64,000 nt of DNA from Patescibacteria group bacterium (GCA_041651155.1 JBAZJU010000005.1:2653-66652); one strand, 5' to 3'. Positions 29,301-31,960 are shown, counted from the stretch's first letter. Notes: a model not told the origin generated them from the letters alone. Translations and numbers: made by a program.

Positions 29301-31422
29301 CGCGCAAACGCCTCATGTTTGTTTGGCGCAAAACCACAGCCCCTGGACTGATTTGACTTCCCTGGTTGGCTTTACCCTGGATAATGGCTGGCAAAAATAC
29401 GAGGTTGAACTCACCCCGTCTGCGACAGACTCAAACGGCCGTTTGCTTTTCTATCTGGGTGATAATAGTGACGGTATTTACTTTGATGATGTTAAATTAA
29501 AAGAAATCCAGCCCACTAAAATTTCCGATTCCACGCCTGAATTTAGCGCGATTTATGATGATGCTGACTCTGGCGATTATGCGACTGATTATCAGATACA
29601 GGTGATTAAATACGATGGCGATTGGGACGAGCCGTTATGGGACAGCGGCCAAACTGCGCTGACAAGTTCTGTTTTGGAAGGGGACAGGACAGAAGATATT
29701 TCTTATGGCGGCGCTGCTTTACCTCTCAATGGCATGAAATATTTTTGGCGCATTAAACTTTGGGACGACGATGACAATGAGGGCTCGTGGACAAATGGCA
29801 AGGATTATTTCGTAATGCAGGGAAAACGCATACAGGATTTGGCGTATACTTACGACAATGTGGGAAATATAGCCCAAATTATTGATGAATCGGAAACCAA
29901 CACGAAAAAGAAATCAGTGTTTGAATATGATGATTTGTATCGTTTAACCTCTGCAACCATTTCAGATAGTTTCAGCGATTATACCCAGACTTATGCTTAT
30001 GATTCCTTGGGTAATTTTACCAATAGGTCTGGTTTGGGAAATTATGCTTATGAAGGGAATACAGGAACTTCCTTTGCCAATCCGCATGCGGTTACCACTA
30101 TAAACAGCGCTGCAAATCTGGACTATGATAATAACGGAAACTTGACCAATTTGCACCTTGGAAGTTTTGTTTTAATCGGTGCGGATTATGATTATAATAA
30201 CAGGATAATTGAAACCTTGAGGCCAAATAGTCAGACCAGTACTTATAAATATGATCACTCAGGCCAGAGAATAGAGCAGAATATCAGCTCTGGCGCAAAA
30301 GTAACTGTTTATCCTAATAAGTATTATGAAAAGACGACTGAAGGGGAAACCGTAAGTGAAACATTGAATATCTATTCTCATGATCAGCTAATTGGCACAG
30401 TGCAAGCTTCTGGAAGCAGTTTTAATCTGTATTTTGTACATCCTGATCATTTAAATAGTTCATCGGTAATGACCAACTATGATGAAACGGGAAGTGTGGA
30501 TCAGGTGATTGATTATACGCCTTTTGGAGGTTTGCGATTTAATGAACAGAATTCTAGTCAAGATATTGAGAGAAAATTCACAGGGCATATAGCGGACGAC
30601 AGTACTACTTTGCAGTACTTTGGGGCAAGGTATTATCAAGGGGATGTGGGACGTTTTTGGAGTGAGGACCCTGTGTTTTTGGATATTGGAAATTCAGGCT
30701 CCAAGAAAGTTTGGGGCGAGAGTCTGGCTAATCCTCAAGGGTTGAATTCTTACAGCTATGTATTAAATAATCCATTAAGGTTAATAGACCCATTGGGCTT
30801 ACGGCCATTATCAGAGCATGAAACAGCAGTTGCTATGCAAATGCAAAGTTTATGGAGTTCAGGGGCAAGTAGCGGTTCATCAGGAGCAGATGTTTTTAGA
30901 ACCGCATATAATACATATGTTAATACTATTCAAGCTTTGCCTGAAGGCGGAGATCCTCAGAACTTTACCATTACAAATGACGCAATGTTTAAGTGGTATG
31001 ATAATCAAATGGGCTATACCGATTGGTCATATGGGGCTAAGATTAAAAGTGATTATTATACTTCGATATCTAAAAATTGGAAATGTAATTATTTTGTAGC
31101 TGAGACACTTAAGGATTCAGTGGGATATAAAAATAATATGCATACCGATTGGTTAGATATTACTAGACGTCCACCTTTAGCCACTGACTGGGTTCATAAT
31201 AATGTTAGCGGTTTTAGTTCGGTTCAAACTCCTGGAATGGGAGATGTGATTTCTTTTGATAATGAAGATGGCAGTTATCACGCTGGCATTTATTTTGGAA
31301 GTAATTTATACATTTCAGCCACTGCTACAGCTGAATATCAAAATGGAAATGTAGCTGATGGTGTTATTATTAAACCAATACCAACTGGTCATCCAATTAA
31401 TTATAATAGATTAAATCATTAA
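23317..31422 (+). CDS. Giant secreted RHS/YD-repeat polymorphic toxin (2701 aa). Signal peptide; acidic T/P/A-rich linker; SpvB/TcB-like N-terminal domain; ~6 FG-GAP/VCBS-like repeats (DINGDGLPDIIRSQ); RHS/YD repeats; a tandem ~45-aa internal repeat; two CBM4/9-like beta-sandwich modules; RHS-associated core (RYYQGDVGRFWSEDP ... NNPLRLIDPLGL); C-terminal ~205-aa NlpC/P60- or CHAP-like (Cys...His) toxin domain.
   Basis: YD motifs YTYD/YAYD/YEYD recur through aa 900-1500 and 2170-2440. Core ends with the DPxGL boundary at 30787-30801. C-terminal domain contains WKCNYFVAETL and SYHAGIYFG. Followed 4 nt later by a TM immunity-like gene. Confidence 0.9.
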   Translation: MLNLKSKSSVFLSKLTMSALVFLFIFTSSPGLALAAEEAVSPEAPADTSASAGSTDTSTPTTDTTTPTPAEAPADQASLDGAKADTESQDQGMDTLTEEEDPENSPETKKAAENKFNLETDGSTGALIYTFPLTIPPGRNNLQPDLKLVYNNQNNDNTNIIGYGWSLNIPYIERQPKIGVNNLYDENYFTSSLSGELEDISLTDGHHGTYGSKVENGDFLNYEFNANNYWVVTDKKGTFYRFGYNSGARQDDPNDSSHAFKWMLEEVRDTNNNYIKYEYYKDAGQIYPADIKYTGYNTTDGIFEIDFLRESRNDDLASFKTGFEVTTSYRINEIQAKINGTWVKKYQLDYSSGDNGVRSMLNTITETGQDEQSNTITLPTNDFTYQTKTKSWTEDTNYIIPETFVTNSFRDFGTRILDINGDGLPDIIRSQCLYNGNSYKKVYINQGDGTGWVEDTNYTIPVCFVSSGGYDTGARLADINGDGFVDILYAYRQYDGSIYSKVYLNQNDGTGWEEDTNWSIPVDFCGGGHGSAARLSDVDGDGLVDILSSQLDYYQQIVDHVYINKGDGTGWQEDTNYTIPESFVTYSLHDMGTRIIDVNGDGLPDILRSQQGVSGNPDIRHVYINKGDGTGWAEDTNYTLPENFVTYSGYDFGVRTADINGDGLEDIIRAQDGISGYPDIRHVYINNGDGTGWTEDTNYTIPENFAVTSCFGNGTQIIDINGDDLADIIRAQDGIPGYSIPDIKEVYISNPHNADLLSQITQSRGGQSSVEYKGSPQYLDLSVNLLNPHLQKIIQTVSQIEYDDGLNNTWTESYQYADGLYYFSDYLNRKLAGFGKVTKTDGEGNVTKTYFHQGNDSDSSHGEYSDDVSKIGKVYRTESYDDSDNLYSKTINKWENYDLGNDQDFVKLTQTIASSYDGNTSHKDKAETYTYDNANGNLTEKITWGEVTGSDNGTFTDTGSDKYTTDIDYAATTGSAVIGSPSHETTIDQSSNKIKETKYYYDTLSLGSVGAGNLTKQEMWKSGTSYINAQKTYNSYGLVTEETDPRGKTTDYTYDTYNLYPASVTNALSQTSSYAYDYSSGKPTQVTDPNSRVFQTVYDALDRVKQEKQPDLTTPSTLVVKSEYTYTDNTVPTKVQQANNLDSSTSFDIYTYLDGFGRKIQERKEAEDTNTFSVKDFVYNDLGLIEKESLPYFSSGSSRTTATTDTSLYTNYTYDPLQRVLTAINAVGTTSNTYDDWKLTITDAESNVKDLYKDAYDNLIQVDEHNDSNTYSTYYEWNGLSNLTKITDSQDNVRNFTYDGLGRRLTAEDLHDTSDSYFGAWTYSYDDSGNLTSRLDPKSQTVNWTYDDLNRVLTEDYTGQTGTEITYAYDTGTDGIGRLYTATTPDVVTTYAYNALGGVKTENKNINSADYLTEYEYDRQGNQTLITYPNDIEVKYNYNTAGLLEEVEAKASGDPSYTDLVSDYDYSPLEQVAYQEDANGVKTYNTYDAAELYRLKEKITASVDEGGFEDLYNIAMAGGAGNGSKSYEITNPYEYTNSSSVSLPGITDNPVVQGLGSIVKAALAPLVIQSEPLKMASEESFTSNNPFSAAFDLGNNANTANVVKGLGLIVKAALSPTSVILNGSEESVTTPSAYSAAFDLGNNANATNDIKVEPKLDLWGKPVDYKLPKDKTIYLKYDKEAKPGELPKEAIEFLDKSGSKINSPELKSIYPQEAIDYFNSGPKSITGSLSGAGASLSKNDFHMALTGTMPNPSTNLNSESKWTTENIIYNQGFEDGFNSWTWQNNLDATRQEDCTVSYAGDCSEKAIVNTAGSFWQVQLSQILRLDQDTNYKLRFKAKASTATTFSFDAEENHSPYNLLGLWASNVAIGTDWTTYEYSFTALANDQNAKITFHLGANSATYWFDEIELIPDTFNKIKNPSFENSAAYWGFTSFGGGYGAGTNSIDCGSPVEGSCDDNVDITVTGNYWEVSLSQPTALDSTKTYELSFYARTDSPYAQTPHVCLAQNHSPWTDLTSLVGFTLDNGWQKYEVELTPSATDSNGRLLFYLGDNSDGIYFDDVKLKEIQPTKISDSTPEFSAIYDDADSGDYATDYQIQVIKYDGDWDEPLWDSGQTALTSSVLEGDRTEDISYGGAALPLNGMKYFWRIKLWDDDDNEGSWTNGKDYFVMQGKRIQDLAYTYDNVGNIAQIIDESETNTKKKSVFEYDDLYRLTSATISDSFSDYTQTYAYDSLGNFTNRSGLGNYAYEGNTGTSFANPHAVTTINSAANLDYDNNGNLTNLHLGSFVLIGADYDYNNRIIETLRPNSQTSTYKYDHSGQRIEQNISSGAKVTVYPNKYYEKTTEGETVSETLNIYSHDQLIGTVQASGSSFNLYFVHPDHLNSSSVMTNYDETGSVDQVIDYTPFGGLRFNEQNSSQDIERKFTGHIADDSTTLQYFGARYYQGDVGRFWSEDPVFLDIGNSGSKKVWGESLANPQGLNSYSYVLNNPLRLIDPLGLRPLSEHETAVAMQMQSLWSSGASSGSSGADVFRTAYNTYVNTIQALPEGGDPQNFTITNDAMFKWYDNQMGYTDWSYGAKIKSDYYTSISKNWKCNYFVAETLKDSVGYKNNMHTDWLDITRRPPLATDWVHNNVSGFSSVQTPGMGDVISFDNEDGSYHAGIYFGSNLYISATATAEYQNGNVADGVIIKPIPTGHPINYNRLNH
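27969..28265 (+). repeat. In-frame tandem duplication (~135 bp x2) inside the RHS gene, encoding GLG(S/L)IVKAAL(A/S)P...SEES.T....SAAFDLGNNAN
   Basis: Two adjacent DNA copies with ~70% identity. Encodes a duplicated 45-aa peptide between the RHS repeats and the CBM-like modules. Confidence 0.6.
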
Positions 31423-31426
31423 ATTT

Positions 31427-31960
31427 ATGAAAAGAAATAAAATGACAATAATAACGATAGTAATAGTAATTTTATTCCTTGTAATTATATGGGGTGTGTT
31501 TTATACACCTAAATATAAAGGTGCAGAGCTGAAATTTAATCAACTATGTGTCCTCGCGGAAAAAGGAGATCAAGTCTCCATCTTATGTAATAAAGATAAT
31601 AACTGGTTTGAGAAATTTATAAAACAAGGGGAAGTTTGGCAATTAGTTAACGACAAGGAAATTAATATTTCAGAGTACAAGTATTTAACTGGTCAGGAAA
31701 TTAAAAATAAAAATTTAGACAATTTATTTGTAGGTGAAGGAGGGTATGTATTTCATGAACCATTGAAAAAAATGATAAAAGATAATAATAGATATAGATT
31801 TTCTGTCGGAATAGGTTTGGAGGGATTTTCTGAAGATTTATCTGCAAGTTATATCGTGTTAAGAATTTATAAAGATTTTAAAGAATATACTTATGGATAT
31901 GAATTAAAAAATGATAAAGTAGGATCGATTATTAGCTTTTATTACAGTATCATTTATTAA
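31427..31960 (+). CDS. Candidate cognate immunity protein for the main RHS C-terminal domain (N-terminal TM anchor)
   Basis: Starts 4 nt after the toxin stop. N-terminal hydrophobic helix IITIVIVILFLVIIWGVF. No family recognised. Confidence 0.5.
   Translation: MKRNKMTIITIVIVILFLVIIWGVFYTPKYKGAELKFNQLCVLAEKGDQVSILCNKDNNWFEKFIKQGEVWQLVNDKEINISEYKYLTGQEIKNKNLDNLFVGEGGYVFHEPLKKMIKDNNRYRFSVGIGLEGFSEDLSASYIVLRIYKDFKEYTYGYELKNDKVGSIISFYYSIIY

What the first reader, a model, noticed from the sequence alone, without database searches (positions are those of the whole stretch)
30802..31960. Main RHS C-terminal effector looks like an NlpC/P60- or CHAP-type cell-wall amidase, with a TM immunity protein
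After the DPLGL autoproteolysis boundary, the ~205-aa tail contains a Cys (WKCNYFVAETL) and a downstream His (SYHAGIYFG), spaced like papain-fold peptidoglycan amidases such as Tae effectors. The adjacent 177-aa ORF has a single N-terminal TM helix, which would place it in the periplasm where such an effector acts.
Basis: inference. Interest (0 to 1): 0.55.

Follow-up and report, generated by a model that had tools for sequence, protein, structure and literature searches.

The report
RHS toxin tip: cell-wall-type cysteine hydrolase
The last 206 residues of a giant secreted RHS protein from a Parcubacteria (candidate phyla radiation) bacterium are a divergent NlpC/P60-type cysteine hydrolase, most likely a peptidoglycan-cutting toxin, followed by a small membrane-anchored probable immunity protein: a fairly ordinary kind of bacterial weapon in an unusual host.

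Summary
The 2701-aa RHS ORF (23317-31422) ends its RHS core at DPLGL (30787-30801). A 206-aa tail follows (30802-31419) carrying WKCNYF (Cys95) and SYHAGIYFG (His160). Four bases later comes a 177-aa ORF (31427-31960) with one N-terminal TM helix.

The toxin interpretation is supported.
- The tail alone scores just below Pfam NLPC_P60 threshold (E=1.4e-4).
- A family profile hits solved NlpC/P60 endopeptidases (4xcm E=6.9e-7; Spr/MepS, LytE, CwlO).
- An AlphaFold model (pLDDT 88) matches MepS/Spr, SagA and RipA.
- Order is canonical (Cys, GD, His), not the permuted lipid-acting order.
- The third triad position is an invariant Ser, and a 3-helix N-terminal subdomain is added.
- Relatives sit at the ends of RHS, PT-HINT and eCIS_core (DUF4157) proteins, often fused to OmpA, PG_binding_1, LysM or VanY modules.
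- It is not a Tae or CHAP member.

The immunity assignment rests on position and topology only. The ORF has no homologue, and the closest toxin relatives are paired with unrelated small polytopic membrane proteins. The host has no outer membrane, so "periplasm" should read "outer face of the membrane".

This is a new member of a known kind. Interest is modest.

The parts
23317..31422 (+). Main RHS polymorphic-toxin gene (2701 aa). It has an N-terminal Sec-type signal peptide (about residues 1-35, ...PGLALA|AEE, by inspection). Domains in order: SpvB, FG-GAP repeats, DUF6443, YD/RHS repeats, 2x CBM_4_9, an Ig-like insert, the RHS core and the C-terminal toxin.
   Evidence: ORF. Pfam: FG-GAP_3 4.4e-25, CBM_4_9 6.6e-25, RHS_repeat 2.9e-24, SpvB 5e-16.
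30514..30801 (+). RHS repeat-associated core domain ending in DPLGL (30787-30801). This is the expected autoproteolytic boundary that releases the tail.
   Evidence: TIGR03696 E=3.7e-17, residues 200-295 of the segment starting at 29917. DNA similarity to the downstream orphan cassettes stops at 30657-30690, about 110-145 nt before DPLGL. Cleavage itself is inferred from knowledge of the family.
30802..31011 (+). N-terminal three-helix subdomain of the toxin (tail residues 1-70; helices 5-24, 28-44 and 53-66; near-invariant Trp65).
   Evidence: AlphaFold2 model m8ae3cb1f1151, block pLDDT 82-97 over residues 1-60 and 85 over 61-70. Trp65 is kept in 91/94 full-length relatives and the subdomain is present even in stand-alone relatives.
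31063..31419 (+). Catalytic NlpC/P60-like core (tail residues about 88-206). Cys95 = 31084-31086, near the start of helix 91-107. Gly147-Asp148 'GD' = 31240-31245. His160 = 31279-31281 on strand 159-166. Ser172 = 31315-31317 on strand 169-174.
   Evidence: Pfam NLPC_P60 E=1.4e-4. Family profile vs PDB: 4xcm E=6.9e-7, Spr, MepS, LytE, CwlO. Foldseek: MepS 8xud_I E=1.4e-4, prob 1.00. C95, H160 and S172 are invariant in 94/94.
31427..31960 (+). Candidate immunity gene (177 aa). It has an N-terminal signal-anchor TM helix (residues 7-25 = 31445-31501) and a soluble domain of about 150 aa predicted to face outward. It starts 4 nt after the toxin stop codon.
   Evidence: ORF. Hydropathy. No Pfam, NCBIfam or PHROG family. 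The only database match is itself (P0156). GC is 26.6% against 37.1% for the window. The role is inferred from position.

Best explanation
The main RHS protein is exported by the Sec pathway. Like other SpvB/TcB-TcC-type RHS proteins, it encloses its C-terminal 206 residues in the YD-repeat shell and cuts them free at DPLGL. Both of these steps are inferred from family knowledge.

The released tail is a canonical-topology (Cys before His) NlpC/P60-superfamily cysteine hydrolase. It belongs to a distinct clade with three marks: a KCN-FV Cys motif, a GD...H-GIY-G...YIS[A] core in which an invariant Ser replaces the usual third His or Asp, and an extra three-helix N-terminal subdomain. This much is shown by sequence and fold statistics.

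Its most likely activity is cleavage of peptidoglycan stem peptides, of the DL-endopeptidase or amidase type. It would act in the wall of a neighbouring or host cell, from outside the cytoplasmic membrane. This is inferred.

The tightly linked 177-aa protein is proposed to be anchored in the producer's membrane by its N-terminal helix, with its soluble domain outside. There it would bind and block the hydrolase, protecting the producer and its kin. This is also inferred.

Downstream orphan rhs cassettes supply alternative tips by recombination.
For: - Homology of the tail alone: Pfam NLPC_P60 E=1.4e-4, 22.2 bits against a cutoff of 23.
- Homology at family level: 17 of 27 family members hit NLPC_P60 at E<=0.01. 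The family profile hits 4xcm at 6.9e-7, plus 2hbw, Spr 2k1g, MepS, CwlO and LytE, with Cys and His aligned.
- Fold: pLDDT 88.4 and pTM 0.88. The top Foldseek PDB hits are all NlpC/P60 peptidoglycan hydrolases, with MepS at E=1.4e-4 and prob 1.00.
- Conservation: C95, H160 and S172 are invariant in 94/94, and G147/D148 in 92/94 and 88/94. The GD motif is a hallmark of NlpC/P60, CHAP and related amidases (PMC10318531).
- Topology: the canonical Cys-to-His order belongs to the peptidoglycan-peptidase group. Permuted members act on lipids (PMC12994826).
- Domain fusions: relatives carry OmpA (7/56), PG_binding_1 (3), LysM (2) and VanY (1). Examples are eCIS_core-VanY-PG_binding_1-domain in P0047 and signal-PG_binding_1-domain in P0152/P0153.
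- Toxin context: the family sits at the C-termini of RHS (6/56), PT-HINT and eCIS_core (13/56) proteins.
- RHS boundary: as given.
- Partner genes: in all nine loci examined (window, L001, L002, L083, L084, L088, L089, L104, L105) the next gene encodes a membrane protein. This fits action outside the cytoplasm.
- Third residue: it is dispensable or variable in active NlpC/P60 effectors. It is Cys in Tse1 and Asp in Tae4 (PMC3695027).
Against: - There is no biochemical evidence. Substrate and bond specificity are inferred by analogy.
- The single-sequence Pfam score is below the gathering threshold.
- Model coordinates could not be inspected, so Cys-His geometry and the role of Ser172 are untested.
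- An invariant Ser at the third position is atypical for peptidoglycan-active NlpC/P60 enzymes.
- The 177-aa ORF is an orphan with no homologue.
- The closest toxin relatives (50-55% identity) pair with an unrelated conserved membrane protein of about 90 aa and 2-3 TM helices. It is not obvious how such a protein would inhibit a soluble wall hydrolase.
- In this window every cassette, including the Ntox44 one, is followed by a membrane protein. The TM helix is therefore not specific to a wall-acting toxin.
- Loci of the eCIS_core-type subfamily mostly lack such a partner.
Confidence: 0.6

Rival explanations
1. The tail is an NlpC/P60-fold hydrolase whose real substrate is membrane-embedded or membrane-proximal rather than mature peptidoglycan. 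Candidates are the lipid II stem peptide, a lipoprotein, or a phospholipid acyl bond. The small membrane proteins encoded next to it would protect at the membrane surface.
For: - The closest homologues, P0001 and P0003, are followed by a conserved protein of about 90 aa with 2-3 TM helices (63% identical between the two loci). P0002, P0004 and P0010 are followed by other polytopic proteins.
- The invariant Ser in place of His or Asp, and the extra helical subdomain, mark this as a distinct clade.
- An NlpC/P60 toxin with a membrane-associated immunity protein has been shown to be a phospholipase (Tox-Act1, PMC12994826).
Against: - Lipid-acting NlpC/P60 members are circularly permuted (His before Cys). 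This one has the canonical order.
- PLAAT/HRASLS structures match only partially and weakly, at E>0.06.
- Relatives are fused to OmpA, PG_binding_1, LysM and VanY modules, which points to the wall.
Confidence: 0.2
2. The tail is a papain-fold protease or deamidase that acts on a cytoplasmic protein after translocation into the target cell. Many RHS tips work this way.
For: - Most characterised RHS C-terminal toxins act in the cytoplasm (general knowledge).
- Polymorphic toxins include several papain-like clades that are not wall hydrolases (PMC3482391).
- In this window even the Ntox44 cassette has a TM-bearing downstream gene. Ntox44 is a predicted RNase according to my recollection of the Pfam entry.
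Against: - All significant sequence and fold matches are to peptidoglycan hydrolases of the P60 group.
- Relatives are fused to PG-binding modules.
- Partner proteins are membrane proteins in 9 of 9 loci examined.
- There were no hits to Tox-PL, transglutaminase or deamidase families at E<=1.
Confidence: 0.07
3. The toxin call is right, but the 177-aa ORF is not its immunity protein. It would be an unrelated lineage-specific membrane ORFan. Protection would come from elsewhere, for example from the producer's wall chemistry or from keeping the tail enclosed in the RHS shell.
For: - The ORF has no homologue in 5.8 billion clusters apart from itself.
- It is unrelated to the partner genes of the nearest toxin homologues.
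- Its GC is very low, at 26.6%.
- eCIS-type relatives often have no partner gene.
Against: - There is a 4-nt gap on the same strand.
- Each of the four cassettes in the array has a tightly linked small membrane-protein gene, with gaps of 4-19 nt.
- The same architecture (N-terminal TM helix plus a soluble domain of about 100-150 aa) follows distant family members P0151 and P0007.
- Immunity genes of polymorphic toxins are typically fast-evolving and non-homologous between related toxins (PMC3482391).
Confidence: 0.2

Closest known systems
Tox-NLPC/P60 C-terminal toxin domains of polymorphic toxin systems (Zhang et al. 2012, PMC3482391)
   Same: Both are papain-fold NlpC/P60 tips. Both occur on RHS and TcdB/TcaC-type proteins and on proteins with the PVC metallopeptidase (DUF4157/eCIS_core). 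Both are predicted to degrade target cell walls. No immunity family is assigned in either case.
   Different: The published signature is C, H, D, whereas this clade has C, H and an invariant Ser. The published taxa are Bacteroidetes and deltaproteobacteria, whereas this host is Parcubacteria. Direct sequence comparison with the published example (Hoch_2166) could not be made here.
P60-like peptidoglycan endopeptidases (E. coli Spr/MepS, B. subtilis LytE/CwlO, T. thermophilus 4xcm, Anabaena AvPCP 2hbw)
   Same: These are the best sequence-profile and fold matches. They share the same order of Cys-helix, GD strand, His strand and third-residue strand. The His-to-third-residue spacing is the same, at +12.
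   Different: Those are housekeeping autolysins with a Cys-His-His triad. Here the third His is Ser. A three-helix subdomain of about 70 aa precedes the core. The domain is a detachable RHS toxin tip. Sequence identity is only 15-22%.
T6SS amidase effectors Tae1-Tae4 (Tse1/Tsi1, Tae4/Tai4)
   Same: Same superfamily, and the same logic of a wall-hydrolysing effector paired with an adjacent immunity gene acting outside the cytoplasm. These effectors also show that the third triad residue can vary (PMC3695027).
   Different: No Tae structure or family appears among the hits. Delivery here is by a Sec-exported RHS in an organism with no sign of a T6SS. Tai immunity proteins are soluble periplasmic proteins, not membrane-anchored ORFans.
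Permuted NlpC/P60 lipid-targeting toxins (Tox-Act1, TseH; PMC12994826)
   Same: Both are NlpC/P60-superfamily antibacterial toxins with membrane-associated immunity proteins.
   Different: Those are circularly permuted (His before Cys) and act on phospholipids. This tail is not permuted.
Sec-dependent RHS/YD-repeat toxins of monoderm bacteria (WapA type) and TcB-TcC cocoons
   Same: All share a signal peptide, SpvB and FG-GAP modules, a YD shell, an RHS core ending in DPxGL, a variable tip with an immunity gene, and downstream orphan cassettes.
   Different: Known WapA tips are mostly nucleases (general knowledge). Here the tip is a wall-type hydrolase and the host is an ultra-small CPR bacterium.

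Membership tests
NlpC/P60 superfamily (papain-like, canonical topology) | Nucleophile Cys near the start of an alpha-helix, followed by a beta-sheet carrying the catalytic His (Cys before His) | tested here: met
   Cys95 lies in helix 91-107 and His160 on strand 159-166. Both align to the catalytic Cys and His of 4xcm and Spr. Both are invariant in 94/94.
NlpC/P60 superfamily (papain-like, canonical topology) | 'GD' motif on the strand before the His strand | tested here: met
   G147-D148 are conserved in 92/94 and 88/94 relatives. The motif is described in PMC10318531.
NlpC/P60 superfamily (papain-like, canonical topology) | Third polar residue (His, Asp, Glu, Asn or Gln) on the next strand that orients the His | tested here: not met
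   The position equivalent to Spr His131, 12 residues after the catalytic His, is Ser172, invariant in 94/94. Whether Ser fulfils the role cannot be tested here. Tse1 has a dispensable Cys at this position.
NlpC/P60 superfamily (papain-like, canonical topology) | Significant fold similarity to solved members | tested here: met
   Foldseek vs PDB: MepS, Spr, SagA, Acd24020, RipA and LytE, with E from 1.4e-4 to 2e-2 and prob 0.99-1.00.
Pfam PF00877 NLPC_P60 | Score at or above the gathering threshold (23 bits) | tested here: not met
   22.2 bits, E=1.4e-4, covering only the His half. 17/27 relatives match at E<=0.01.
CHAP (PF05257) | Significant match to the CHAP profile | tested here: not met
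   E=0.069, 14.1 bits against a cutoff of 26. 4/27 relatives match at E<=0.01.
Tae1-4 T6SS amidase effectors | Sequence or fold relationship to Tse1/Tae structures, and T6SS delivery | tested here: not met
   No Tse1/Tae chain appears among PDB sequence hits at E<=1 or in the top 50 fold hits. There are no T6SS genes in the window. The host is Patescibacteria.
Permuted NlpC/P60 (LRAT/YaeF/Tox-Act1, lipid-acting) | Circular permutation: His before Cys | tested here: not met
   Cys95 precedes His160. PLAAT/HRASLS hits are only partial, at E>0.06.
RHS polymorphic toxin with C-terminal toxin and immunity pair | YD/RHS repeats plus an RHS-associated core ending in DPxGL immediately before the variable tip | tested here: met
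   RHS_repeat 2.9e-24. TIGR03696 3.7e-17, ending at 30801.
RHS polymorphic toxin with C-terminal toxin and immunity pair | Downstream orphan cassettes sharing the core but carrying different tips | tested here: met
   Three cassettes are 73-82% identical in DNA to 29801-30690, then diverge. Their tips are Ntox44 and two HExxH-like domains.
RHS polymorphic toxin with C-terminal toxin and immunity pair | Cognate immunity protein that neutralises the tip | not testable with these tools
   Only position (4-nt gap) and membrane topology are available. The ORF has no homologues.
Tox-NLPC/P60 of Zhang et al. 2012 | Sequence membership in the published family (C, H, D signature; example Hoch_2166) | not tested
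The associations match (RHS, PVC metallopeptidase, TcdB/TcaC), but the third conserved residue differs.

The most novel reading that the evidence does not exclude
An ultra-small Parcubacteria episymbiont uses a Sec-exported RHS cocoon, encoded next to its type IV pilus genes, to deliver a previously undescribed Cys-His-Ser clade of NlpC/P60 hydrolases against the envelope of its host or of rival cells. The clade's frequent pairing with tiny polytopic membrane proteins would mean that it attacks a membrane-linked wall precursor such as lipid II, rather than mature peptidoglycan.
Probability: 0.12. Interest if true: 0.65.

Novelty: new member of a known kind. Interest (0 to 1): 0.35.

Why it matters
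NlpC/P60 tips on RHS and eCIS toxins were predicted in 2012, and I know of no characterised example. This clade has no Pfam or NCBIfam model of its own. It has about 200 cluster representatives at E<=1e-3, an invariant Cys-His-Ser arrangement and an added helical subdomain. A curated model would improve annotation of many metagenomic toxins.

The occurrence in a Parcubacteria genome is also of some interest. It sits in a four-cassette rhs array next to type IV pilus genes. Almost nothing is known about how CPR bacteria attack or compete with other cells. A wall-cutting secreted weapon with self-protection would be a testable handle on that question.

None of this overturns current understanding.

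Tried and rejected
- Word-indexed homologue search with the tail found only 2 relatives. The exhaustive profile search was needed to reach the family.
- The first AlphaFold run, with 3 sequences, was poor (pLDDT 60). It was redone with 27 sequences.
- A genome-contig scan with the close-relative alignment found nothing. A metagenome scan with the same alignment found nothing. The 27-sequence alignment was too diverse to make search patterns. A scan with the eCIS-type subfamily gave 14 loci, which mostly lack a partner gene and say little about immunity.
- The immunity ORF has no Pfam, NCBIfam or PHROG family. It has no homologue other than itself. It shows no similarity to the other downstream proteins in the window or in related loci. 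A tblastn search of the window for the ~90-aa partner protein of the closest toxins was negative.
- The promoter and terminator scan of 30600-32300 was no better than shuffles for promoters, and the terminator-like hairpins lie inside coding sequence, so it was uninformative.
- The alternative-frame ORF 30818-31099 (93 aa) was dismissed as an overlap artefact inside the well-supported toxin frame.
- PHROGs gave only a weak hit of the tail to a 'minor tail protein' family (E=3.9e-5). This was not followed up.

Full report
**1. What is in the sequence**

The + strand carries a 2701-aa ORF (23317-31422), followed after 4 nt by a 177-aa ORF (31427-31960). No ORF of 50 aa or more lies on the opposite strand within 30802-31960. 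One 93-aa alternative-frame ORF (30818-31099) overlaps the toxin frame and is taken as spurious.

The large protein starts with a Sec-type signal peptide (by inspection...PGLALA|AEE). It contains SpvB, FG-GAP, DUF6443 and RHS repeats, two CBM_4_9 modules and an Ig-like module.

NCBIfam's RHS repeat-associated core (TIGR03696, E=3.7e-17) ends exactly at Leu2495 of DPLGL, at 30799-30801. The tail therefore begins at 30802 and is 206 aa long.

The 177-aa ORF has a single strongly hydrophobic segment, residues 7-25, after a KRNK start.

**2. Host and locus**

LeuRS from the window is 86% identical to that of a 'Candidatus Parcubacteria' MAG. The 177-aa protein is present, 100% identical, in NCBI as a hypothetical protein of a 'Patescibacteria group bacterium'. 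Other window genes are chromosomal housekeeping genes: IF-2, EF-G, EF-Tu, RNase Y and ComEC.

The host is therefore a CPR bacterium.

Three orphan rhs cassettes lie downstream, at 32019-33572, 34073-35473 and 36014-37537. They share 73-82% DNA identity with 29801-30690 of the main gene and then diverge. Each is followed within 10-19 nt by a small membrane-protein gene. A type IV pilus cluster follows directly.

**3. What the tail is**

- *Single sequence.* The tail alone hits Pfam NLPC_P60 at E=1.4e-4, with 22.2 bits against a cutoff of 23. It hits CHAP only at E=0.069. NCBIfam has nothing.
- *Relatives.* The word-indexed search found two relatives. The exhaustive profile search found 200 cluster representatives at E<=1e-3. 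With a 27-sequence alignment (A2), 94 of the 154 retrieved proteins that matched the profile cover the full ~200-aa domain.
- *Conservation.* Cys95, His160 and Ser172 are invariant in all 94. Gly147 is kept in 92/94, Asp148 in 88/94 and Trp65 in 91/94.
- *Solved structures, by sequence.* The A2 profile hits solved NlpC/P60 peptidoglycan endopeptidases: 4xcm (E=6.9e-7), 2hbw, Spr 2k1g, MepS, CwlO and LytE. The printed alignments place Cys95 on the catalytic Cys (4xcm) and His160 on the catalytic His (4xcm, 2hbw, Spr). Ser172 falls on the third-residue His, for example Spr ...HVGIYIGNNQFVHAS.
- *Pfam on relatives.* Seventeen of the 27 members hit NLPC_P60 at E<=0.01, and four hit CHAP.
- *Fold.* AlphaFold2 with A2 gives pLDDT 88.4 and pTM 0.88. 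It shows three N-terminal helices, a long helix (91-107) carrying Cys95, then a beta-sheet with His160 (strand 159-166) and Ser172 (strand 169-174). Foldseek against the PDB returns only NlpC/P60 wall hydrolases at the top: MepS 8xud_I (E=1.4e-4, prob 1.00), Spr, SagA, Acd24020, RipA and LytE. The permuted PLAAT/HRASLS enzymes match only partially, at E>0.06. No Tse1/Tae chains are listed.

The tail is therefore a canonical-order NlpC/P60-superfamily domain, closest to the P60-like group. It is not a CHAP or Tae member.

**4. What it most likely does**

Two lines point to the cell wall.

First, topology. Canonical NlpC/P60 members are peptidoglycan peptidases, whereas the circularly permuted ones act on lipids (PMC12994826). 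The GD motif is typical of the wall-active cluster (PMC10318531).

Second, domain fusions in relatives. Of 56 scanned, 13 carry eCIS_core (DUF4157), 7 OmpA, 6 RHS repeats, 3 PG_binding_1, 2 LysM, 1 VanY and 1 PT-HINT. Individual architectures include:
- eCIS_core-VanY-PG_binding_1-domain (P0047);
- eCIS_core-OmpA-domain (P0107, P0013);
- PT-HINT-domain (P0017);
- signal/TM-PG_binding_1-domain (P0152, P0153). P0152 lies next to a PG_binding_1-VanY protein.

The family is thus a mobile toxin tip repeatedly combined with peptidoglycan-binding or peptidoglycan-cutting modules. This agrees with the 'Tox-NLPC/P60' class of Zhang et al. 2012. That class is found with RHS, TcdB/TcaC and the PVC metallopeptidase and is predicted to degrade target walls.

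The Ser at the third position is unusual. It is not disqualifying, however. Tae4 uses Asp, and Tse1 has a Cys there that is dispensable for activity (PMC3695027).

**5. The candidate immunity gene**

It has no family hit and no homologue in 5.8 billion clusters other than itself. Its GC content is 26.6%, against 37.1% for the window.

The closest toxin relatives are 50% (P0001) and 55% (P0003) identical to the tail. P0001 is an orphan rhs cassette in L001, and P0003 is a full 1989-aa RHS in L088. Both are followed by a conserved protein of about 90 aa with 2-3 TM helices, 63% identical between the two loci. That protein is unrelated to the 177-aa ORF and absent from the window.

P0002 and P0004 are followed by other small polytopic proteins. 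P0010 is followed by a 144-aa two-TM protein.

P0151 (Nostocaceae) and P0007 (RHS, 2027 aa) are followed by proteins of 126 and 132 aa. Each has an N-terminal TM helix and a soluble domain, the same architecture as here. P0155 is followed by a protein with a C-terminal TM helix.

So in 9 of 9 loci examined the next gene encodes a membrane protein. This fits a toxin that acts outside the cytoplasm or at the membrane. The proteins are not homologous to one another, however. Within this window, cassettes with unrelated tips also have membrane-protein partners. Loci of the eCIS-type subfamily mostly lack such a partner.

The immunity role of 31427-31960 is therefore plausible but inferred.

**6. 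Rivals**

The polytopic partners, the invariant Ser and the added helical subdomain leave room for a membrane-proximal substrate such as lipid II, a lipoprotein or a phospholipid. I give this about 0.2, because the topology is not permuted and the fusions point to the wall.

A cytoplasmic protein target is unlikely (about 0.07).

The 177-aa ORF may not be the immunity protein (about 0.2).

**7. Verdict**

It needs correction on family (P60-like, not Tae or CHAP; Cys-His-Ser), on compartment (no periplasm in this host), and on the strength of the immunity inference.

This is a new member of a known kind of system. Two features are modestly interesting. One is an unmodelled NlpC/P60 toxin clade. 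The other is its presence in a CPR bacterium, within an rhs array next to pilus genes.

Noticed in passing
window 32019-38483: Array of three orphan rhs cassettes, each with its own small membrane-protein gene. Cassette 1: 32019-33572 (Ntox44 tip, E=1.3e-12) with 33583-34191 (202 aa, 1 TM). Cassette 2: 34073-35473 (tip with HEMGLW) with 35493-35885 (130 aa, multi-TM). Cassette 3: 36014-37537 (GTG start, tip with HELGHW) with 37553-38074 (173 aa, 1 TM). A further ORF, 38019-38483, ends in an rhs-like FTGHIAN.
   Followed up: partly
window 34073-35473 and 36014-37537: The two HExxH-like tips are 66% identical, yet they are followed by unrelated membrane proteins. One copy has lost the second His of the motif (HEMGL against HELGH) and may be inactive. 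The main tip's family shows the same pattern of related toxins paired with unrelated partners.
   Followed up: partly
window 38588-46358: A type IV pilus gene cluster lies directly downstream of the rhs array: PilB-like T2SSE ATPase (E=2e-129), PilC-like T2SSF, several N-methyl pseudopilins and PilM. The adjacency of pilus genes and a contact-weapon locus in a CPR episymbiont may be functional or coincidental.
   Followed up: partly
window 28612-29793 (RHS residues 1766-2159): Two CBM_4_9 carbohydrate-binding modules and an Ig_Rha78A_N-like domain lie C-terminal to the RHS repeats that Pfam detected, ahead of the RHS core. They may be a target-surface recognition insert.
   Followed up: no
window 31427-31960: The candidate immunity gene has 26.6% GC, against 35.4% for the toxin tip and 37.1% for the window. 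This is typical of a recently acquired or fast-evolving cassette.
   Followed up: no
L001 10849-11127 and L088 9975-10244: A conserved membrane protein of about 90 aa with 2-3 TM helices, 63% identical between the two loci, has a C-x7/8-C loop (FCSGFEGKMC and YCPDFEGMIC). It follows the two closest homologues of the toxin tip and is a likely immunity family with no annotation.
   Followed up: partly
L090, L091, L094, L095 (metagenome loci): In the eCIS_core-type subfamily, the gene after the NlpC/P60-type toxin is often another DUF4157-bearing protein (motif RAFME.RFG.DF). That is, the DUF4157 toxins occur in tandem arrays without an obvious immunity gene.
   Followed up: no
L001 5779-7220: Between the main RHS gene and the orphan cassette carrying P0001, the related contig holds an N6_N4 methyltransferase and a MutH-like endonuclease. 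This looks like a restriction-modification-like pair inserted in the rhs array.
   Followed up: no
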